Of a stretch of 34,506 bases of DNA, positions 1,822-23,313 are shown one piece after another (the first letter of the stretch is position 1; each line of letters starts with the position of its first letter). The DNA is taken from the UHGV virus genome UHGV-0828925; one strand, 5' to 3'. A program made the position numbers and the translations under genes. Below the pieces are notes generated by a model. That model saw only the letters and a program-made list of their open reading frames with translations. It ran no database searches and was not told the origin of the DNA. The stretch comes from a virus.

Positions 1822-3298
1822 TAACCTGAGCGACGAAGAGCAAATCGAATTGCTCGAGCTACTCGAAGAAGAAGAGAACTACCGTAACACACACCTGCTA
1901 TATGAATTTACGCCATACAGCAAACAGCGTGAGTTCATCGACGCCGGGCATGACTATCCAGAGCGATGTTTTATGGCTGGTAACCAGCTTGGTAAGTCAT
2001 TTACTGGTGCTGCTGAAGTCGCGTTTCACCTTACCGGGCGTTATCCGGGCACAAAAGGCTATCCTGCTGATGGTAAATATGGCGGTGAGTGGAAAGGTAA
2101 GCGTTTCTATGAGCCTGTTGTCTTCTGGATTGGCGGCGAGACAAACGAGACGGTAACCAAAACGACTCAACGCATCCTGTGCGGTCGTATTGAAGAGAAT
2201 GATGAGCCGGGCTACGGTTCAATACCGAAAGAGGACATCATTAGCTGGAAGAAGTCTCCTTTCTTTCCGAACCTTGTTGATCATCTTCTGGTTAAGCATC
2301 ACACGGCTGATGGCGTTGAAGATGGCATTTCAATCTGCTACTTCAAGCCATACTCGCAAGGCCGTGCACGCTGGCAGGGTGACACAATCCACGGCGTGTG
2401 GTTTGACGAAGAACCACCATACAGCATTTATGGTGAAGGTCTTACCCGTACCAACAAATACGGGCAATTCTCAATTCTGACGTTTACCCCGCTGATGGGG
2501 ATGTCTGACGTTGTTACCAAGTTCCTGAAGAATCCCAGCAAGTCGCAGAAAGTGGTCAACATGACCATCTATGACGCTGAGCACTACACAGACGAACAGA
2601 AAGAGCAAATCATCGCATCCTATCCCGAGCATGAGAGAGAGGCGCGTGCTCGCGGTATTCCTACGATGGGTAGTGGTCGAATCTTCCAGATACCGGAAGA
2701 GACGATTAAGTGTCAGCCGTTCGAGTGTCCTGATCACTTCTACGTAATTGGCGGGATGGATTTCGGATGGGATCACCCACAGGCGCAGGTTCAGATTTGG
2801 TGGGATAAGGACGCAGACACAATCTACGTTTCACGCGTGTGGAAGGCGAAAGAAAAAACAGCCGTTCAGGCGTGGGGAGCCGTTAAATCATGGGCGCATA
2901 AAGTGCCAACCGCATGGCCTCATGACGGAAACCAGCACGAGAAGGGCGGCGGTGAGCAGCTCAAAGGGCAGTATGCAGATGCTGGTTTTATGATGTTACA
3001 GGAGCATGCGACATGGCCTGATGGCGGTAATGCTGTTGAGCCTGGCATCACTGAATTGCGCGACATGATGCTCGATGGTCGCTTCAAAGTATTCAACACC
3101 TGTGAGCCATTCTTTGAGGAGTTCCGCCTCTATCACCGTGATGAAAACGGGAAAATCGTCAAGCTTAACGACGACGTTCTCTCAGCCGTTCGCTATGCAT
3201 ACATGATGCGCCGCTTCGCAAAAATGATGCGCGACATCAAAAAACCAAAAGAGAAAAAGATACCAGCCCCAATCAGGCCCATCGCACGGAGAACTTAA
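1799..3298 (+). CDS. gp2: Terminase large subunit (P22 gp2-like)
   Basis: 499 aa, overlaps the end of gp3; length and position match P22 gp2; nuclease-domain-like acidic motifs in the C-terminal half. Confidence 0.92.
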
Positions 3299-5464
3299 AT
3301 GGCCGACGAAAACAGACTCAATTCCATTCTGTGTAAGTTTGACGCGGACTGGATGGCGAGCGATGAAGCCAGAACCGAGGCGACAAATGACCTGTATTTT
3401 AGCCGAGTGTCGCAATGGGATGACTGGCTATCAAACTACACGACCCTGCAATATCGCGGACAATTCGATGTTGTTCGCCCGGTGGTCAGGAAGCTGGTCG
3501 CAGAGATGCGCCGGAATCCTATCGACGTTCTCTTCCGACCAAAAGACGGAGCTAATCCTGATGCTGCCGATGTGCTGATGGGGATGTATCGTACTGATAT
3601 GCGCCATAACACGGCAAAAATTGCCGTTAACGTTGGCGTTCGTGAGCAGATAGAGTCCGGCGTTGGTGCATGGCGTCTGGTCACGCAGTACGAAGACAAC
3701 GATCCAACAAGCAACAATCAGGTAATTCGACGCCTGCCAATTCATGAAGCCTGCTCACACGTCATATGGGACGCCAACAGCAAGCAGATGGATAAGAGCG
3801 ATGCTAAGCACTGCACGGTGATTAACGCCTTGTCACGCAATGGCTGGAAAGAGTTCGCAGAGGATTACGGTATTGATCCGGACACCTTACCATCTTTCCA
3901 GAATCCGAACGATACATGGCTGTTTCCGTGGGTATCGAATGATGTCGTCTACGTCGCTGAGTATTACGAGGTCGAAGAGAAGAAAGAGAAAGTCTTCATC
4001 TACCGCGATCCGCTGACAGGTGAGCCGGTCAGCTATTACCAGCAGGATATTAAAGACGTTATCGACGACCTGGCTAATCGTGGATTCATTAAGGTAGCAG
4101 AGCGCAAGGTGAAGCGTCGGCGTGTGTATAAGTCGATCATCACCTGCACGCAGATACTGAAAGACCGCGAGAAGATAGCCGGAGAGCATATTCCAATCGT
4201 TCCAGTGTATGGAGAATGGTCATTCGCTGGTGACAAGGAGTGCTACGAAGGAGTGGTAAGGCTGACGAAAGACGGTCAACGCCTTCGTAACATGATCATG
4301 TCGTTCAACGCCGATATCGTTGCTCGTTCACCGAAGAAGAAACCTACCTTCTTCCCTGAGCAAATCGAAGGCTACGAATACATGTACGGTGGAAATGATG
4401 ACTATCCGTACTATCTGCAGAACAGGACCGATGAAAACGGTAACGACCTGCCGATTGGTCCAATCTCCTACATGGAAAACCCTGAAGTGCCGCAAGCCAA
4501 CGCTTACATGCTTGAGGCTGCCACCAACGCAGTGAAAGAGGTGGCTAGTCTTGGCGTGGATGCGCAGGCGGCAAACTCTCAGGTCGCTTTCGATACCGTC
4601 AATCAACTGAACATGCGGGCAGACCTTGAGACATACGTGTTTCAGGATAACCTGGCTACCGCAATGCGACGCGATGGCGAGATTTATGCCTCAATGGTCA
4701 ATGATATTTATGACGTTCCTCGTCATGTAACGCTGACACTTGAAGATGGAAGCGAGAAAGACGTTCAACTCTATGCGCAAGTTGTCGATTACCAGTCCGG
4801 CAATGTGGTCACACTCAACGACATTCGCGGTCGCTATGAGTGCTATACAGACGTCGGACCATCCTTCCAGAGTATGAAGGAACAGAACCGCGCAGAGATT
4901 CAGGAGTTGCTCACCAAGGTTCCGCAAGGTACTCCAGAGTTCCAGATGCTGATGCTGCAATACTTCACGCTGCTTGACGGTAAAGGCGTCGAGATGATGC
5001 GAGAGTACGCGAACAAGCAACTGGCGATGATGGGGCTGAAGAAACCAGAAACACCTGAAGAGATGGAGATGGTGCAACAGGCACAACAACAGCCGCAGCA
5101 GCCATCAGCAGAGCAAATTCAGGCGCAGGGCATCCTTCTGCAAGGTCAGGCTGAATTGCTCAAGGCAGAGAACCAACAGGCGCAGATTCAGGTTGAAGCT
5201 GCCAAGGTTGAAGCTCAAAACCAACTTAACGCCGCGAAGATTGCAGAAATCTTCAACAATATGGACCTCGACAAGCAGGCAGAACTGCGTGAGTACCTCA
5301 AGCTAGTAGGTCAATTCCAGCAACAGCGCAGCAAAGATGCTCGTGCTAACGCTGAGCTGCTTCTTAAAGATGCAGACCAGACTCATTCACAACGCATGGA
5401 TTTCGCGAATCTTATGCGTCAAGTTCAAATCCCCTCCGGCGGAGTAGCCGAGACACCTCAATAA
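3299..5464 (+). CDS. gp1: Portal protein (P22 gp1-like)
   Basis: 721 aa, directly after large terminase; Q/A-rich coiled-coil C-terminal barrel region ([10 protein letters not shown]...[20 protein letters not shown]) typical of the P22 portal. Confidence 0.92.
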
Positions 5465-8799: not shown

Positions 8800-10218
8800 A
8801 TGCCTATTCAGCAACTTCCGCTTATGAAAGGTGTCGGCAAAGACTTCCGAAATGCCGACTATATCGACTATCTGCCAGTGAATATGCTGGCTACACCCAA
8901 AGAAATCCTCAACAGCAGCGGATATCTTCGCTCATTCCCGGGCATTGCTAAACGTTCTGATGTGAACGGTGTATCTCGAGGCGTCGAGTACAACATGGCG
9001 CAGAATGCTGTTTATCGTGTGTGTGGTGGCAAGCTGTACAAAGGAGAAAGTGAAGTCGGTGACGTTGCCGGAAGTGGTCGCGTATCAATGGCGCATGGTC
9101 GGACATCACAGGCGGTAGGCGTTAATGGTCAACTGGTCGAGTATCGTTATGATGGCACGGTTAAAACCGTCTCAAACTGGCCTACAGACAGCGGATTCAC
9201 GCAGTATGAGTTAGGCTCAGTCCGCGACATTACGCGCTTACGTGGGCGTTATGCGTGGTCAAAAGACGGCACTGATTCATGGTTTATCACTGACCTTGAA
9301 GACGAATCGCATCCTGACCGCTACAGCGCACAATATCGTGCCGAGTCGCAGCCTGACGGCATCATCGGAATCGGAACATGGCGAGACTTCATCGTCTGCT
9401 TTGGTTCATCGACGATTGAATATTTCTCCCTGACTGGCGCAACCACCGTTGGTGCTGCTTTGTATGTCGCACAGCCATCACTGATGGTGCAAAAAGGAAT
9501 AGCCGGAACCTACTGCAAAACGTCGTTTGCTGATTCTTATGCATTTATCAGCAATCCGGCAACAGGTGCGCCGTCTGTGTATATCATCGGCTCCGGTCAG
9601 GTATCACCAATCGCCAGCGCGAGCATTGAGAAAATCCTCCGCTCCTACACTGCTGATGAACTGGCTGATGGTGTGATGGAATCGCTGCGATTTGATGCTC
9701 ATGAGTTGCTGATTATCCACCTTCCGCGCCATGTTCTCGTGTACGACGCATCTTCAAGCGCCAATGGTCCGCAATGGTGTGTACTGAAAACAGGCCTGTA
9801 TGACGATGTGTACCGCGCTATCGACTTCATTTACGAAGGCAACCAAATAACGTGCGGCGATAAGCTTGAATCGATGACAGGGAAATTGCAGTTCGATATC
9901 AGCAGCCAGTACGACAAGCAACAGGAACACCTGCTGTTTACTCCGTTGTTCAAAGCAGATAACGCCAGAGTTTTCGACCTTGAAGTTGAGTCGTCAACTG
10001 GCGTTGCGCAGTATGCTGACCGCCTGTTCCTCTCTGCAACCACTGACGGCATAAATTATGGGCGTGAGCAGATGATTGAGCAGAATGAACCGTTCGTTTA
10101 CGACAAACGCGTTTTGTGGAAACGAGTAGGGCGCATCAGGAAAAACATTGGTTTCAAATTGCGCGTTATCACGAAGTCACCTGTCACTCTGTCTGGCTGC
10201 CAGATAAGGATTGAGTAA
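8800..10218 (+). CDS. gp10: Tail hub / head completion protein (P22 gp10-like)
   Basis: 472 aa, same length and position as P22 gp10. Confidence 0.88.
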
Positions 10219-17126: not shown

Positions 17127-17150
17127 AACCCACCTTCAGGTGGGTTTTTT
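17127..17150 (+). terminator. Rho-independent terminator between convergent genes
   Basis: AACCCACC-TTCA-GGTGGGTT followed by TTTT; overlaps the mnt stop codon on the opposite strand. Confidence 0.7.
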
Positions 17151-17410: not shown

Positions 17411-17674
17411 CTAACTTTCGTCTTTATTGTTGCTATACATGCATTTCAACTTCTCAACATCATGTTCAAGATCTATCAATCGTGATGCTATAGTTGCAAG
17501 GTCTAGTGCTTGAATGTGTTTATTTTTTTCGGTCCATGCTTCAAGTGCCGCGACCATCTCAGCATTTAATGAACGAGAATTAGCCTCAGCCAGTTCAATA
17601 AGACGTTCCTTTATCTCTACAGGAAGCCTCAGATTCACTTGAGGGTTTTTGTACTTACGATCAGACATCGGCAC
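17411..17674 (-). CDS. Second ribbon-helix-helix (Arc/Mnt-family) DNA-binding protein
   Basis: 87 aa; N-terminal NLRLPVEIKERLIELAEANSRSLNAEMVAALE matches the RHH beta-strand/helix pattern; upstream of and co-oriented with mnt. Confidence 0.75.
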   Translation of the reverse strand: MPMSDRKYKNPQVNLRLPVEIKERLIELAEANSRSLNAEMVAALEAWTEKNKHIQALDLATIASRLIDLEHDVEKLKCMYSNNKDES

Positions 17675-17704
17675 ATCCTGAATAATTTTTTACCACAGGA
17701 TATG

Positions 17705-17743
17705 TAGGTATCTATTGACTATCAATGCGTACCTAAATACTAT
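17705..17743 (+). promoter_or_regulatory. Rightward Pant-like promoter with overlapping inverted repeat (candidate Arc/Mnt operator)
   Basis: -35 TTGACT (17715..17720), 17-bp spacer, -10 TACTAT (17738..17743); TAGGTA...TACCTA inverted repeat spans the -35. Confidence 0.55.
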
Positions 17744-17773
17744 GTATGCGTACCACATACAACGGAGGATGCA

Positions 17774-17914
17774 ATGAAGGTAAAAACACTGCGTATGCCA
17801 GAGAAGTTAGAAAAAATCCTTGAAGAGAAAGCAAAGGAAGAGTGTCGCTCATTTAGTGCAGAAGTAATTAAACGGGTGATGGACAGCCTGAAGAGAGAGG
17901 GGATAACGGTATGA
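17774..17914 (+). CDS. arc: Arc-like ribbon-helix-helix repressor
   Basis: 46 aa MKVKTLRMPEKLEKILEEKAKEECRSFSAEVIKRVMDSLKREGITV; GGAGG SD 5 nt upstream; same architecture as P22 Arc; stop overlaps next ATG (ATGA). Below the 60-aa track threshold, found by reading. Confidence 0.7.
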   Translation: MKVKTLRMPEKLEKILEEKAKEECRSFSAEVIKRVMDSLKREGITV

Positions 17915-18114
17915 GTAAAGAATGTTGTTTCTGCGGCATTAGCGAATCAGACGCTGATCAAACATACATTTACTCTAAAGAAACAGGTCGGATGCTGTGT
18001 AGTGACTGCGTGTTGGACATCATAAGATACAAGCATCTTGGATGTTCTGCCAGCATTAGCAATATAGGTGAAGTATATGAAGGGAAAGATATAACTGATA
18101 GAGCAGAAAGTTGA
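17911..18114 (+). CDS. Small Cys-rich protein (possible zinc ribbon)
   Basis: 67 aa with CCFC...CSDC spacing (two Cys pairs); translationally coupled to arc. Confidence 0.5.
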   Translation: MSKECCFCGISESDADQTYIYSKETGRMLCSDCVLDIIRYKHLGCSASISNIGEVYEGKDITDRAES

Positions 18115-18176
18115 AGCCCCAACTGCGGTAACAGTCAGGACTTCGGTATCAACAAATCGGATTAGGAAATATTGAC

Positions 18177-19055
18177 ATGAAAAGTATAGCAAAGGCACAA
18201 AACGATTTCACCATCTTCAAATTCGGCGACAGTGAAATCCGCGTCATCAACAAATGCGGTGAGCCGTGGTTTGTAGCAAAAGATGTTTGTGATGCTTTAA
18301 CCCTGACTAACTCACGCAAGGCGCTTACTGCACTTGATGACGATGAAAAGGGAGTAACTTTAAGTTACACCCTTGGTGGTGAGCAGAATCTAAGCATTGT
18401 TAGCGAATCAGGTATGTATACATTGGTTCTGCGCTGCCGCGATGCTGTCAATAAAGGTTCGGTCCCGCACAAATTCCGCAAGTGGGTAACAGCAGAAGTT
18501 CTACCTTCAATTCGCAAACATGGCGAGTATGTGAAAGGCAAGAAAACCACTGTTGAGGAAAGAACGCCGCTACGCGATGCAGTAAACATGCTGGTAGGAA
18601 AGAAAGGACTTCGCTATGACGATGCATACAATATGGTTCATCAGCGTTTTGGTATTGACAGCATTGATGAACTTTCAATTGAACAAATCCCGCAAGCCGT
18701 AGAGTACATCCACAGGGTAGTGCTTGAAGGCGAATTCATCGGCAAACAAGAGAAGAAAACCGACGAGCTTTCTGCAAAAGAAGCAAACAGCCTTGTATGG
18801 TTATGGGATTATGCCAATCGTTCACAGGCATTATTCCGCGAACTGTATCCGGCATTAAAACAAATTCAATCGAACTATTCCGGCAGATGCTACGACTATG
18901 GTCATGAATTCTCGTATGTTATCGGAATGGCGAGAGACGTTTTAATCAATCACACACGAGATGTTGATATCAATGAGCCAGACGGACCAACGAATCTTTC
19001 CGCATGGATGAGACTTAAGAATAAAGAATTACCTCCTTCAGTACATAACTACTGA
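18177..19055 (+). CDS. ant: Antirepressor with Bro-N-type N-terminal domain
   Basis: 292 aa; N-terminal [30 protein letters not shown]... resembles the Bro-N domain; occupies the ant position after arc. Confidence 0.75.
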
Positions 19056-19074
19056 CAGATAACCAACGCAACGA

Positions 19075-19098
19075 CCCAGCTTCGGCTGGGTTTTTTAT
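19075..19098 (+). terminator. Rho-independent terminator after ant
   Basis: ACCCAGC-TTCG-GCTGGGT followed by TTTTTT. Confidence 0.8.
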
Positions 19099-19108
19099 GC
19101 CCAAAATT

Positions 19109-19229
19109 CACCGTAGCCACACTTAGGCAATGAGCTTGAAGGAGAGACCTACACAAAAAGTGTAGGTCGAAAAGCGAACAAAATAACTTCCGAAAAAGTT
19201 GTTTTATCACAAAAAACTCACCGTAGCCA
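19109..19229 (+). repeat. Direct repeats TCACCGTAGCCA flanking a hairpin upstream of the tailspike gene
   Basis: AAA(T/C)TCACCGTAGCCA at 19105..19120 and 19213..19229; hairpin ACCTACAC-AAAAA-GTGTAGGT at 19147..19167 between them. Confidence 0.55.
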
Positions 19230-19264
19230 TGCTGCGGCGATTCCTTGTATCTGGAGCAAATTAA

Positions 19265-21286
19265 ATGACAGATTCGATAAATGCCAATGTTGTAGTGAGT
19301 ATGCCTTCGCAACTCTTCACTATGGCGCGTTCTTTTAAAGCCGTAGCCAATGGCAAAATTTATATCGGTAAGATTGACACAGATCCGGTAAATCCAGAAA
19401 ACCAGATTCAGGTTTATGTGGAGAATGAAGACGGTTCTCACGTTCCTGTTTCGCAACCAATCATCATTAATGCTGCTGGATATCCGGTATATAACGGACA
19501 GATTGCCAAGTTCGTAACTGTGCAAGGTCATTCTATGGCTGTGTACGATGCGTATGGGGCGCGGCAGTTCTATTTTCCGAATGTGCTTAAGTATGATCCT
19601 GATCAGTTAAAAAACATTTTACTATCAAAATCTGGAGCATCAAATGTTTTCACGTCTTCTGGTGATAGCGTTCAAACATTTATAGATAACTATGCATTTA
19701 TTTATGCTGTTGATTATTTGCCTGAAAATTACGTTACAGACGGTTCTGTAGACTATCGCGCAGAAATACAAGAAGCAATCAATCATGCAACGAGCATAAA
19801 ATCAGCATTGGTTTTACCTCCATTTCAGTGCAAGATAACTCCGGTAGATCAGTTTGATGTTCCAGGTCTCCTAATCCCATCTAATTCAATAATTATAAAC
19901 CCACCAGGAGGATCGCTTAAGATTGGTGAAAATAGCTTTGAGCAATACGGGGTTATGACATTTTCAGATGTTGAAAATATAATTGTTATAAACCCAGTAT
20001 GCATTGGAGATAAAACAACTCACAAAGGACTGGACGGCGAGTTCGGAATGTGTTTCTTTATCAGGGGTGGGTGTAACAATATAGAAATAAAAAACCCTAA
20101 AGCCATTGATGCATGGGGAGATGGAATTTTTATTGGTCAGCACTGGCCTGATAAGGTCTCATACCCGAAGAAAATAACTATAACCAGACCAGTTACAGAA
20201 AACTGCCGTAGGCAAGGTATTAGCATTACATGTGGAGAGTCCATAGTCATCGATAGGCCAGAATTGAACAACACTGGTGATAGCGATTCAACACCCCTCC
20301 CAAACGGCCCATGGGCTGGAATCGACATAGAACCTAACTATTTTCAGACGCCGTTAAGGGGAATTCACGTCAATGGAGTTATAGGAAAGGGTAATAAAGG
20401 GCCGCTAACTCAAATCGCGCTAAATATGGCAGATACAAACATCCCACCAGAAGGTGGTAGATATGACTGCCAAATCACCATTGACGGGGTTTCTGATGAC
20501 TCATCAAGAGGAGCGTTTGAGTTTTGGGGGGTTCCTAACAGAGATTCTCTTTTTAACGGATACGTTTCAGTTAAGAACGTGTGCTCCAAGGGAGCGCTAA
20601 AAAACCCTATAATGATAAACAACCAATTCTACAAGTCAGGCTTGCGCCTACTAGTAGACAACGTATCAATAAATGATTGGTCTTGCTCATATTCAAGCAA
20701 CATTGATAAGGCCCCTATAGCCATTAAAACATCTGATTCATCACAATATCCATCATCAACACTTCCAGTACAGGGGAACTTTGAAATAAGAGATGTGTCT
20801 CTTAGCTCATCTCTTCCAGCTGAAAGCATATCAAAATATGCAATCGTAACAAACAATGCAAAAGGGTTTGTAGGTGCATATATATCGTTCAAGCATGTAA
20901 TATGTCCAGTAAAGCTAACCACTAACGTTTTTGGTAGGATTAATCTTGATCTAGGTTCATTTTACCAGACTCTAACATGTACAATGAATCCAGGTGAAAC
21001 TTTAAACCTTGCTTCATTATCTGATATTAAGATGAGCGAGCCTGGAGAGATCTCCCTTCCATCATCAATTGATAGCAGATTCAATGGTCAACAATATAGA
21101 TTAATGTATGACTCATCGTCTGGATTTATGAAGATGAATACATCTAGCCTTAACGTATTCGTAAACGGTAAAGCGGTTACTGCCGGATATGCTAATTTTT
21201 ATCCATCAGCAGGTGTAATATCAATAACTGTTGGTGTTAATGGGTTTGTTCTTATAAACACTCAGGGAGGATATACGCCATCATGA
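19265..21286 (+). CDS. gp9: Tailspike protein with P22-type head-binding N-domain and divergent receptor-binding domain
   Basis: 673 aa; first ~110 aa ([14 protein letters not shown]...[25 protein letters not shown]...[15 protein letters not shown]...NVLKYDPDQ) match the P22 gp9 head-binding domain as I recall it; the rest is AT-rich and unlike P22. Confidence 0.85.
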
Positions 21287-23185: not shown

Positions 23186-23313
23186 GGAAGTGCATTTATC
23201 ATCTCCATAAAACAAAACTCGCCGTAGCGAGTTCAGATAAAAGAAATCCCCGCGAGTGCGAGGATTGTTATTCATTGCCGATATTCACCTTTATCGCGAA
23301 CACCTTTACCGGT

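What the first reader, a model, noticed from the sequence alone, without database searches (positions are those of the whole stretch)
19105..19264. Direct repeats flanking a hairpin immediately upstream of the tailspike gene
Two copies of (A)AA(T/C)TCACCGTAGCCA lie 109 bp apart (19105..19120 and 19213..19229) around the hairpin ACCTACAC-AAAAA-GTGTAGGT, between the ant terminator and the tailspike start. This could mark a recombination boundary for tailspike exchange, a regulator-binding site, or a small RNA.
Basis: seen in the sequence. Interest (0 to 1): 0.4.

Follow-up and report, generated by a model that had tools for sequence, protein, structure and literature searches.

The report
Antirepressor-gene relic upstream of tailspike gene
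The repeats and hairpin are real, but they are best read as a recombination scar: a 29-codon leftover of a second antirepressor gene caught between two copies of the start of the tailspike leader, and its hairpin is a palindrome that the parent gene family conserves for an unknown reason.

Summary
AAAATTCACCGTAGCCA (19103-19119) and AAAACTCACCGTAGCCA (19213-19229) lie 110 bp apart, around a perfect 9-bp hairpin (19146-19168). This is the ant-to-gene-9 spacer of phage P22 (95.7% identical), here in an E. coli P22-like prophage.

Most relatives, such as epsilon34, carry one repeat copy and no insert. The repeat is the start of the conserved tailspike leader, which is present whatever lies upstream. 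The insert is an in-frame internal fragment (about aa 50-78) of the uncharacterised PHROG 1726 "anti-repressor" family. An E. coli prophage has the intermediate: ant, its terminator and repeat copy 1, fused to a 5'-truncated PHROG 1726 gene that PGAP annotates as a pseudogene. The repeats therefore mark mosaic junctions in the fast-changing "ant moron".

I found no support for a terminator, a promoter, a known small RNA or an Arc/Mnt operator.

The unexpected result is that the hairpin is a hallmark of the parent genes. It is kept across Enterobacterales by strictly Watson-Crick, whole-codon covariation that dictates the amino acids, and synonymous change is suppressed there. Its function is unknown. 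Whether the relic still works in front of the tailspike gene is unresolved; one compensatory change between P22 and the window hints that it might.

The parts
18177..19055 (+). ant antirepressor gene (292 aa; Bro-N plus P22_AR_C domains)
   Evidence: ORF. Pfam Bro-N (E 5.6e-20) and P22_AR_C (E 1.8e-29). Its 3' end aligns with P22 ant.
19073..19098 (+). t_ant, the intrinsic terminator of ant (8-bp G+C stem, loop TTCG, T-run)
   Evidence: Terminator scan. The same sequence is annotated as the ant terminator in P22 BK000583 and in epsilon34.
19103..19131 (+). Repeat copy 1. The 17-nt core is 19103-19119. It is a degenerate duplicate of the start of the tailspike leader, carried in with the ant/t_ant module.
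   Evidence: In epsilon34-type relatives the same sequence runs straight on into the leader (GCTGCGGCGATTCC). In L053 copy 1 is a perfect 21-nt duplicate, CCGTAGCCACGCTGCGGCGAT.
19129..19209 (+). Relic of a PHROG 1726 'anti-repressor' gene. The frame is open and reads NELEGETYTKSVGRKANKITSEKVVLS (about aa 50-78 of the family). It has no start codon.
   Evidence: Translation. tblastn and alignments to JEP4_17, the APSE-7 regulator, the Klebsiella ZX1 anti-repressor and phiKp_30. One 44-nt stretch is 97.7% identical to the APSE-7 gene. The family was assigned by PHROGs (E 2e-102 for JEP4_17).
19146..19168 (.). The hairpin or palindrome GACCTACAC-AAAAA-GTGTAGGTC. It is the conserved palindrome of the PHROG 1726 gene family and covers codons E-T-Y-T-K-S-V-G.
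   Evidence: Covariation on 26 unbiased distinct sequences: 96.2% paired against 77.9% in shuffles (0 of 500), and 5 of 9 pairs changed on both sides. Synonymous variation is suppressed at these codons. The palindrome is kept in homologues down to 42-44% identity.
19180..19205 (+). A/U-rich second stem-loop inside the relic (AAAAUAACUU / AAGUUGUUUU). It is predicted only.
   Evidence: RNA fold. It is perfect in the phiKp_30-type genes but not conserved in ZX1, so it is probably incidental.
19213..19241 (+). Repeat copy 2 (17-nt core 19213-19229). It is the true start of the conserved tailspike (gene 9) leader.
   Evidence: Homology with phages that lack ant (ST160, PM43, 720R6) begins here. 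It is conserved in 38 distinct leaders.
19221..19237 (+). Leader stem-loop CCGUAGC-CAU-GCUGCGG in the tailspike 5' UTR. The repeat core forms its 5' arm and loop.
   Evidence: RNA fold. The 7 core pairs are kept in 38 leaders. Changes are mostly wobble-compatible on the + strand, with one C-G to U-A compensation, but this is not significant against shuffles.
19265..21286 (+). Tailspike gene (673 aa) with a P22-type N-terminal head-binding domain. GGAG Shine-Dalgarno at 19253-19256.
   Evidence: ORF. Annotated as tailspike in P22 relatives and E. coli genomes.

Best explanation
The feature is a recombination scar in the hypervariable 'ant moron' that lies between the late genes and the tailspike gene of P22-like phages.

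Shown:
1. The repeated 17-21-mer is the first part of the conserved 5' leader of the tailspike gene.
2. The 81 nt between the copies (19129-19209) are an in-frame internal piece of a PHROG 1726 'anti-repressor' gene, a gene that sits in this region in other P22-like phages.
3. A prophage exists in which ant, t_ant and copy 1 are fused to the 3' two-thirds of such a gene.

Inferred order of events:
1. An ant/t_ant module that still carried the first ~20 nt of a tailspike leader was joined by illegitimate recombination to codon ~50 of a PHROG 1726 gene.
2. A second event at short homology (gene ...GTTGTT|TTAT... against the t_ant tail TTTTTTTATGCCCAAAATTCACCG) removed the rest of the gene and rejoined it to a complete leader. 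This left the start of the leader on both sides of a 29-codon relic.
3. Further deletion gave the shorter 78-bp-spaced form. Recombination between the repeats would regenerate the single-copy form.

The hairpin was not built for this position. It is the palindrome that the parent gene family conserves at the nucleotide level, and it was carried along because it sits 18 nt from the left junction.

In the window the whole spacer is simply transcribed into the tailspike 5' UTR by read-through of t_ant. It is probably dispensable, since most relatives lack it.
For: - **Identity of the region:** 95.7% identical to the P22 ant-gene 9 spacer (annotation).
- **The insert is an indel:** epsilon34 has one copy and no insert, with identical flanks.
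- **Survey of relatives:** among 80 loci found through the tailspike N-domain, 40 have one copy right after t_ant, 1 has the window form, and 6 have a shorter homologous insert with copies 78 bp apart.
- **The repeat belongs to the tailspike leader:** in phages without ant, homology begins at (G)CCGTAGCCA, which is copy 2.
- **The insert is a gene fragment:** it is homologous in frame to aa ~50-78 of PHROG 1726 genes.
- **These genes belong in this region:** they lie next to mnt-like genes upstream of the tailspike gene in JEP4 and many IMG/VR prophages.
- **Intermediates exist:** L184 and E. coli FDAARGOS_1288 have ant, t_ant and copy 1 followed by a 5'-truncated gene that PGAP annotates 'missing N-terminus'.
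- **The relic is decaying:** the 78-bp form carries in-frame stop codons.
- **Published context:** this region is in rapid flux and holds degraded ant genes in HK620 and Scho1 (PMC2629481).
- **No sign of other functions:** no promoter-like site in the insert, no Rfam family, and no U-run after the hairpin.
Against: - Every relic seen keeps an intact hairpin, although the 18 nt to its left have decayed (5 of 18 positions, with stop codons) in the short form.
- P22 and the window differ at only 5 positions in the repeat-insert-repeat stretch. Two of these are a compensatory C:G to A:T change at the loop-closing pair. My rough estimate of the chance probability is 0.004-0.01, calculated after seeing the data.
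- Relics carry different hairpin variants that match different gene subfamilies. This needs either repeated gene conversion or independent origins.
- The order and direction of the events is inferred, not observed.
- The exact right junction rests on a short, imperfect similarity.
Confidence: 0.8

Rival explanations
1. The relic is retained because its palindrome still works. One version is a DNA site that is bound by, or titrates, a PHROG 1726-type protein from a co-resident or competing phage. That would make it an orphan cognate site, by analogy with the aba DNA element that neutralises BstA. The other version is an RNA stem-loop that stabilises or processes the tailspike mRNA after read-through of t_ant.
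For: - The palindrome is under strong nucleotide-level constraint in the parent genes.
- It is intact in all relics while neighbouring relic sequence decays.
- There is a compensatory change between P22 and the window.
- Pairing is strictly Watson-Crick with no G.U, and the variants fall into discrete classes (ACC/GGT, CAC/GTG, TTT/AAA). This looks like a DNA site with cognate specificities.
- The protein model has winged-helix-like domains with weak MerR/RacA/Xis-type fold matches.
- A precedent exists for a short DNA element inside a prophage gene that acts in trans (PMC8585504).
- A satellite-like element carries two tandem copies of the palindrome in an unrelated ORF.
Against: - Most P22-like phages with the same ant and tailspike leader lack the insert, so it is not needed for tailspike expression.
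- No additional half-sites occur near the genes or in the window.
- PHROG 1726 proteins are not BstA homologues. PADLOC gives only marginal hits (mad1 E 0.0023, DpdH E 0.0085), and aba has a different sequence and position.
- Hairpin survival can be explained by its closeness to the left junction and by few, recent events.
- The fold matches are not significant as E-values.
Confidence: 0.15
2. The repeats are a target-site duplication made by insertion of a small mobile element (MITE-like) that carries the hairpin.
For: An insert flanked by direct repeats, present in some relatives and absent in others, has the outward look of a transposition event.
Against: - The duplicated stretch is 17-29 nt, and 21 nt perfect in L053, which is far longer than usual target duplications.
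- The insert has no terminal inverted repeats and occurs once in the window.
- It is colinear and in frame with an internal gene segment.
- A long 5'-truncated gene sits at the same left junction in L184 and L316.
Confidence: 0.02
3. The region encodes a small RNA, or the repeats and hairpin are operators for Arc/Mnt-like repressors that control tailspike expression.
For: - The spacer RNA is predicted to be unusually structured (z = -5.07).
- The immI region is known for RNA and repressor control; sar RNA is found at 18109-18175.
- The 7-mer TGTAGGT of the hairpin also occurs in the palindrome at the window's divergent immI promoter (17703).
Against: - No promoter-like site lies in or before the insert.
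- The hairpin lacks a U-run on either strand.
- There is no Rfam hit.
- The P22 Arc (ATGATAGAAGCACTCTACTAT) and Mnt (AGGTCCACGGTGGACCT) operators are unrelated to the hairpin and to the repeats.
- The shared 7-mer is at chance level: 5 found against 2.1 expected, and 6 of 100 shuffles reach 5.
- Most relatives have one repeat copy and no hairpin.
Confidence: 0.03

Closest known systems
The ant-gene 9 spacer of Salmonella phage P22 (immI region, or 'ant moron')
   Same: Same position, same terminator, same two repeats, same relic and same leader. It is 95.7% identical over 231 nt.
   Different: The window is an E. coli prophage with different arc-like genes, a different ant N-terminus and a different tailspike receptor-binding domain. 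The hairpin's loop-closing pair is C:G here and A:T in P22. P22's annotation names only the terminator in this spacer.
Degraded genes and module junctions in the 'ant moron' of P22-like phages (Villafane et al. 2008, PMC2629481), and conserved short 'boundary' sequences at lambdoid module junctions (concept from my own knowledge of the HK620/HK97 genome papers)
   Same: A gene remnant left by module replacement. A short conserved sequence (CCGTAGCCAYGCTGCGG) sits at the junction whatever lies to its left. In L255 it persists even with a different leader and tailspike to its right.
   Different: The remnant comes from a different antirepressor family (PHROG 1726), not from ant. The junction sequence is duplicated here. 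The paper describes no such relic for P22.
The aba (anti-BstA) element of prophage BTP1 (Owen et al. 2021, PMC8585504)
   Same: A short nucleic-acid element embedded in a prophage gene and inherited with it. It has variant-specific ('cognate') sequences, and aba has terminal direct repeats.
   Different: aba is 63 bp at the start of bstA, has CCCGCC direct repeats and no palindrome. BstA is a KilA-N-like defence protein unrelated by sequence to PHROG 1726. The resemblance is in concept only. No function has been shown for the palindrome.
Intrinsic terminators and sib-type retroregulatory hairpins
   Same: A stable stem-loop in a read-through region just after a terminator.
   Different: No U-run follows on either strand, and the 9-bp stem is too short for a typical RNase III site. 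The same hairpin lies inside intact coding sequences elsewhere.

Membership tests
P22-type ant-tailspike spacer (immI / ant moron) | Lies between the ant terminator and the tailspike start codon and is homologous to the P22 spacer | tested here: met
   95.7% identity to P22 15980-16211. The ant, terminator and gene 9 annotations flank it.
Pseudogene relic of a PHROG 1726 anti-repressor gene | Colinear, in-frame similarity to an internal segment of family members at both the DNA and protein level | tested here: met
   NELEGETYTKSVGRKANKITSEKVV aligns to aa ~50-78 of the family. One 44-nt stretch is 97.7% identical to the APSE-7 gene.
Pseudogene relic of a PHROG 1726 anti-repressor gene | Not a functional gene: no start codon, and decay in relatives | tested here: met
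   The frame has no ATG/GTG/TTG start and no listed ORF. In-frame stops occur in L244 and the 78-bp forms.
Pseudogene relic of a PHROG 1726 anti-repressor gene | Intermediates with a longer remnant exist at the same junction | tested here: met
   In L184 and E. coli FDAARGOS_1288, t_ant plus copy 1 is followed by a 591-nt 5'-truncated gene that PGAP flags as 'missing N-terminus'.
Intrinsic (Rho-independent) terminator | G+C-rich stem-loop followed by a U-run | tested here: not met
   The scan finds only t_ant at 19073-19092. The hairpin at 19146-19168 is followed by GAAAAGCG on + and by TCTCCTTC on -.
Known small RNA families (for example sar) | Match to an Rfam covariance model, with its own promoter and terminator | tested here: not met
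   Only sar is found, at 18109-18175(-). Nothing is found at 19100-19264 at E up to 1. There is no promoter-like site.
Arc / Mnt operators | Sequence resemblance to O_arc or O_mnt, or to the window's own immI palindrome | tested here: not met
   The P22 operators read are unrelated. The shared 7-mer with the window's palindrome at 17701-17739 is at chance level.
Transposable element with target-site duplication | Terminal inverted repeats, a short duplication, and copies at unrelated sites | tested here: not met
   No terminal inverted repeats, a 17-29 nt duplication, and a single copy in the window. The insert is an internal gene segment.
aba-like self-immunity DNA element | Neutralises its cognate protein when present on replicating DNA | not testable with these tools
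   Only a conceptual parallel. PHROG 1726 proteins give no convincing PADLOC hit.
Structured nucleic-acid element inside PHROG 1726 genes | Base-pair covariation and suppressed synonymous change at the paired codons | tested here: met
   96.2% paired against 77.9% in shuffles (0 of 500). 41 cells changed on both sides and none on one side. The same-codon fraction is 0.83-1.0 at the hairpin codons, against about 0.25-0.6 at most flanking codons. Phylogeny-aware statistics were not run.

The most novel reading that the evidence does not exclude
The 23-nt palindrome is a previously undescribed cis-acting element embedded in the coding sequence of a large, uncharacterised family of prophage 'anti-repressor' genes (more than 2,000 proteins). 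Its complementarity is selected so strongly that it dictates which amino acids are encoded (T..G, H..V, F..K). It comes in discrete cognate classes. The orphan copy that P22 and this prophage keep in front of the tailspike gene would then be a functional decoy, immunity or regulatory site that responds to such proteins from other phages.
Probability: 0.15. Interest if true: 0.8.

Novelty: new member of a known kind. Interest (0 to 1): 0.42.

Why it matters
For the finding as given, the result is mainly a clarification. A feature in one of the most studied phage regions, P22 immI, is explained as the fossil of a second antirepressor gene. The repeats show how modules were swapped in front of the tailspike gene, at a short conserved leader sequence.

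The wider point came as a by-product. The parent gene family carries a palindrome that is maintained by whole-codon covariation across Enterobacterales prophages, APSE phages of insect symbionts and a satellite-like element. It could be a protein-binding DNA site, an RNA structure, or a self-perpetuating quasipalindrome. In any of these cases it is a clear and testable example of nucleic-acid constraint overriding protein coding. P22 itself, with its orphan copy, is a ready genetic system for testing it.

Tried and rejected
- **Terminator or promoter in the insert:** the scan finds none.
- **Known RNA family:** Rfam at E up to 1 gives only sar, 1 kb upstream.
- **Arc/Mnt operator resemblance:** none. 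The TGTAGGT match to the window's immI palindrome is at chance level.
- **Extra half-sites of the palindrome:** not enriched near 70 PHROG 1726 genes (about 0.8 per locus against 1.13 expected) or in the window (6 against 3.7 expected).
- **BstA/aba identity:** rejected. The sequence, position and protein family all differ.
- **Pfam:** no domain for the parent family.
- **Literature:** a full-text search for the hairpin sequence gave no paper. The BTP1 transcriptome paper has nothing on this spacer, because BTP1 lacks immI.
- **Strand of the structure:** I tried to infer it from wobble pairs. One clade has A.C on the sense strand (G.U on the antisense strand) and another has U.G on the sense strand, so there is no verdict.
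- **'CCATCGTAGCCA' 259 nt upstream of gene 9 in some loci:** it lies inside an mnt-like gene and is coincidental.
- **Third near-copy of the repeat at 23214-23230:** it lies among small ORFs beyond xis and is probably chance.
- **Flank-identity comparison of forms with and without the insert:** uninformative, because ant and the tailspike gene are themselves mosaic within 600 nt.
- **Fold search of the protein model:** only non-significant MerR/RacA/Xis-like local matches.

Full report
**1. Observation**

The sequence shows AAAATTCACCGTAGCCA at 19103-19119 and AAAACTCACCGTAGCCA at 19213-19229. The copies are 110 bp apart start to start. The repeat finder extends the pair to 29 nt at 79% identity.

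A degenerate search of the whole window with up to 3 mismatches finds only these two exact hits plus one 2-mismatch hit at 23214. Shuffles give 0.29 expected, and none of 100 shuffles reaches three hits.

The hairpin has 9 perfect pairs: GACCTACAC (19146-19154), loop AAAAA, and GTGTAGGTC (19160-19168). It lies between an intrinsic terminator (19073-19092 plus T-run) and the ATG of a 673-aa tailspike gene at 19265.

**2. Where this is**

The stretch 19042-19272 is 95.7% identical to the ant-gene 9 spacer of Salmonella phage P22. The upstream hairpin there is annotated as the ant terminator, and nothing else in the spacer is annotated.

The window itself is an E. coli prophage. The 261-nt stretch is 100% identical in ST131-type and other human isolates. 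The full form occurs in 46 of 5,426 complete E. coli genomes, and partial forms occur in 795.

sar RNA, the antisense regulator of ant, is present at 18109-18175 on the minus strand.

**3. Comparison with relatives**

epsilon34 has identical flanks but a single repeat copy that runs straight into GCTGCGGCGATTCC, so the 110 bp are an indel bounded by the repeats.

I fetched 80 IMG/VR loci through the tailspike N-terminal domain:
- 40 have the single-copy form directly after t_ant.
- 1 has the window's form.
- 6 have a shorter but homologous insert, with copies 78 bp apart.
- The rest have other upstream modules.

In phages that lack arc and ant and have mnt next to the tailspike gene (ST160, PM43, 720R6), homology with the window begins at (G)CCGTAGCCA, which is repeat copy 2. 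The repeat is therefore the start of the conserved tailspike leader, and copy 1 is an extra, partly degenerate copy of it. In L053 both copies are perfect over 21 nt (CCGTAGCCACGCTGCGGCGAT).

In L255 the same insert, with both copies, sits behind an mnt-like promoter region and in front of a different leader and tailspike gene. There the short motif persists with both flanks changed.

**4. What the insert is**

A 44-nt piece including the hairpin is 97.7% identical to a gene of the aphid-symbiont phage APSE-7.

The frame starting at 19120 is open and reads HLGNELEGETYTKSVGRKANKITSEKVVLSQK. It aligns with residues ~50-78 of four proteins:
- the APSE-7 'putative transcriptional regulator';
- the 'KilA protein' of the P22-like coliphage JEP4;
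- a Klebsiella phage 'anti-repressor';
- phiKp_30 gp080.

These belong to PHROG 1726, 'anti-repressor' (E 2e-102 for JEP4_17). They have no Pfam domain. In the protein database the family numbers 2,045 proteins at E up to 1e-5, and the sources call nearly all of the best 120 hits 'hypothetical'.

In JEP4 and many IMG/VR prophages the gene sits in the same region as ant, next to mnt-like genes upstream of the tailspike gene. The window's fragment has no start codon. Related fragments carry in-frame stops. It is a gene relic.

**5. How the repeats arose**

Two records hold an intermediate. In IMG/VR locus L184 and in E. coli FDAARGOS_1288, ant, t_ant and copy 1 (AAAATTCACCGTGTCCACGCTTAGGTAAT) are followed by the PHROG 1726 gene from codon ~50 to its end. 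PGAP annotates this as a pseudogene 'missing N-terminus'.

The left junction is the same as in the window and in the 78-bp form. I infer the following order:
1. An ant module carrying the first ~20 nt of a tailspike leader was joined to the interior of a PHROG 1726 gene.
2. A second event at short homology removed the remainder and rejoined a full leader. The gene reads GTTGTT|TTATCACAAAAAAyTCACCG, compared with the t_ant tail TTTTTTTATGCCCAAAATTCACCG. This left the start of the leader on both sides.
3. A further 32-nt deletion gave the 78-bp form.
4. Recombination between the repeats would give back the single-copy form.

The first and last states and one intermediate are observed. The order is inferred.

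This fits the published picture of the 'ant moron' as the fastest-changing part of the late operon, with degraded antirepressor genes in HK620 and Scho1 (PMC2629481). That paper does not mention this relic.

**6. The hairpin in the parent genes**

In intact PHROG 1726 genes the hairpin covers the codons that follow DELEGE. I fetched 80 loci by protein patterns that do not include the hairpin and 25 genome loci from Serratia, Pantoea, Erwinia, Arsenophonus, Sodalis, Symbiopectobacterium and Yokenella.

The stem is kept by changes of whole codons:

| DNA | Residues encoded |
|---|---|
| GACCTACAC..GTGTAGGTC | ETYTKSVG |
| GCACTACAC..GTGTAGTGC | EHYTKSVV |
| GTTTTACAC..GTGTAAAAC | EFYTKSVK |
| GACCTACAAAA-T-TTTTGTAGGTC | ETYKIFVG |
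| CACTACGAAA-T-TTTCGTAGT | EHYEIFVV |
| GTTTTACAAAA-C-TTTTGTAAAAC | EFYKTFVK |
| CGGTTACAC..GTGCAACCG | EDGYTKSATV (one extra codon) |

. The palindrome persists in homologues with only 42-44% protein identity.

On 26 distinct, unbiased sequences:
- 96.2% of cells pair, against 77.9% in shuffles (0 of 500).
- 5 of 9 pairs change on both sides, in 41 cells.
- The covariation score is 0.478 against 0.134 (0 of 500).
- No pair changes on one side only, so pairing is strictly Watson-Crick.

Sliding the partners abolishes the signal.

Among 58 distinct coding sequences, codons for the same amino acid are identical in 83-100% of pairs at the hairpin codons. At most flanking codons the figure is about 25-60%.

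In an AlphaFold model (mean pLDDT 72.6) these residues run into the first strand (residues 58-64) of a beta-hairpin that follows two helices. Fold matches to MerR/RacA/Xis-type DNA-binding domains are weak.

The nucleotide sequence, not the protein, is what is conserved here.

I could not establish the function. The following were checked:
- No U-run follows the hairpin on either strand, so it is not a terminator.
- No Rfam family matches it.
- No extra half-sites occur nearby.
- No paper in the library contains the sequence.

The strictly Watson-Crick pattern and the discrete classes would fit a duplex DNA site with cognate specificities. They would also fit a quasipalindrome kept perfect by template-switch 'correction' during replication, a known mutational mechanism (my own knowledge), without any selected function. 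An RNA hairpin is not excluded.

**7. Does the relic do anything in front of the tailspike gene?**

Against a function:
- Most relatives with the same ant end and leader lack it.
- It has no promoter or terminator features.
- It decays outside the hairpin.

For a function:
- Every relic seen has an intact stem.
- P22 and the window differ at five positions in the repeat-insert-repeat stretch, and two of these are a compensatory C:G to A:T change at the loop-closing pair. My rough chance estimate, made after seeing the data, is 0.004-0.01.
- Relics carry hairpin variants that match different gene subfamilies, including their downstream tails. This points to patchwise conversion from full-length genes or to repeated origins.

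The hairpin lies only 18 nt from the fixed left junction, and all deletions came from the right. Its survival could therefore be positional. I rate a passive scar as most likely and a retained function as a minority possibility.

**8. The leader itself**

The repeat core is the 5' arm and loop of a small stem-loop, CCGUAGC-CAU-GCUGCGG (19221-19237), 28-44 nt upstream of the start codon.

Across 38 distinct leaders the seven core pairs are almost always kept. The changes seen are mostly compatible with wobble pairing on the + strand, with one C-G to U-A compensation. The leader is 94% conserved, and the test is not significant against shuffles.

This is consistent with an RNA structure in the tailspike 5' UTR, but not shown.

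**9. Verdict**

The feature is a new, explained example of a known kind of thing: a gene relic at a phage module junction, in a region already sequenced and studied for decades. The interesting residue is the coding-sequence palindrome of the PHROG 1726 family, which deserves its own study.

Noticed in passing
L091-L170, L291-L315, L004, L008-L010 (for example L093 2665-2687): All intact PHROG 1726 'anti-repressor' genes carry a 23-nt palindrome at codons ~55-62. It is kept by whole-codon, strictly Watson-Crick covariation and by suppressed synonymous change, across Enterobacterales prophages and APSE phages. Its function is unknown.
   Followed up: partly
L187 250-300; L210 about 3260-3310; L199 about 2890-2940 (IMG genome 2836755666): An unrelated ORF (MNIQNTVNNREGLLYAKNQGG...) carries two tandem copies of the palindrome (GACCTACAAAAAAAGTGTAGGTC followed by ACTACACAAAAAGTGTAGT). 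It lies next to a P4-type integrase and two AlpA-like genes, in what looks like a satellite inserted in a prophage. The same genome's prophages also have PHROG 1726 genes with the palindrome.
   Followed up: no
L093 1966-1988 (and 30 other loci): A second palindrome of the same geometry, CAGGTACTCGAAGTGAGTACCTC, lies inside the Bro-N-type antirepressor gene just upstream of the PHROG 1726 gene. It is absent from the JEP4 homologue.
   Followed up: no
window 19221-19237: The core of the repeat forms a small stem-loop (CCGUAGC-CAU-GCUGCGG) that is conserved in tailspike leaders. The changes are mostly compatible with G.U pairing on the + strand, which suggests an RNA structure in the 5' UTR. Support is weak because there is little variation.
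   Followed up: partly
window 17411-18175: The immI region here differs from P22. It has an extra 87-aa ribbon-helix-helix gene on the minus strand (17411-17674), a 46-aa Arc-like gene (17774-17914) and a 67-aa cysteine-rich ORF (17911-18114) before ant. sar RNA (18109-18175, minus strand) and a Psar-like promoter (18211-18183) are conserved.
   Followed up: partly
window 17701-17739: An 18-nt imperfect inverted repeat (TATGTAGGTATCTATTGA / TCAATGCGTACCTAAATA) overlaps the divergent promoter-like sites between the ribbon-helix-helix genes and is probably their operator. It shares the 7-mer TGTAGGT with the hairpin, at chance level.
   Followed up: partly
window 23214-23230: A third near-copy of the repeat (AAAACTCGCCGTAGCGA, 2 mismatches) lies among small ORFs beyond xis. 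It is probably chance.
   Followed up: partly
L255 about 9200-9290: A prophage has the same relic and both repeat copies but an mnt-like upstream region and a different tailspike N-terminus. After GCTGCG its leader switches to a terminator-like hairpin (GCGCAAG-TTTTAG-CTTGTGC followed by a T-run).
   Followed up: no
window 17127-17146: A symmetric G+C-rich hairpin (AACCCACCTTCAGGTGGGTT) with a T-run on the + strand lies between the 355-aa ORF and mnt. The scan scores it as a terminator on both strands.
   Followed up: no
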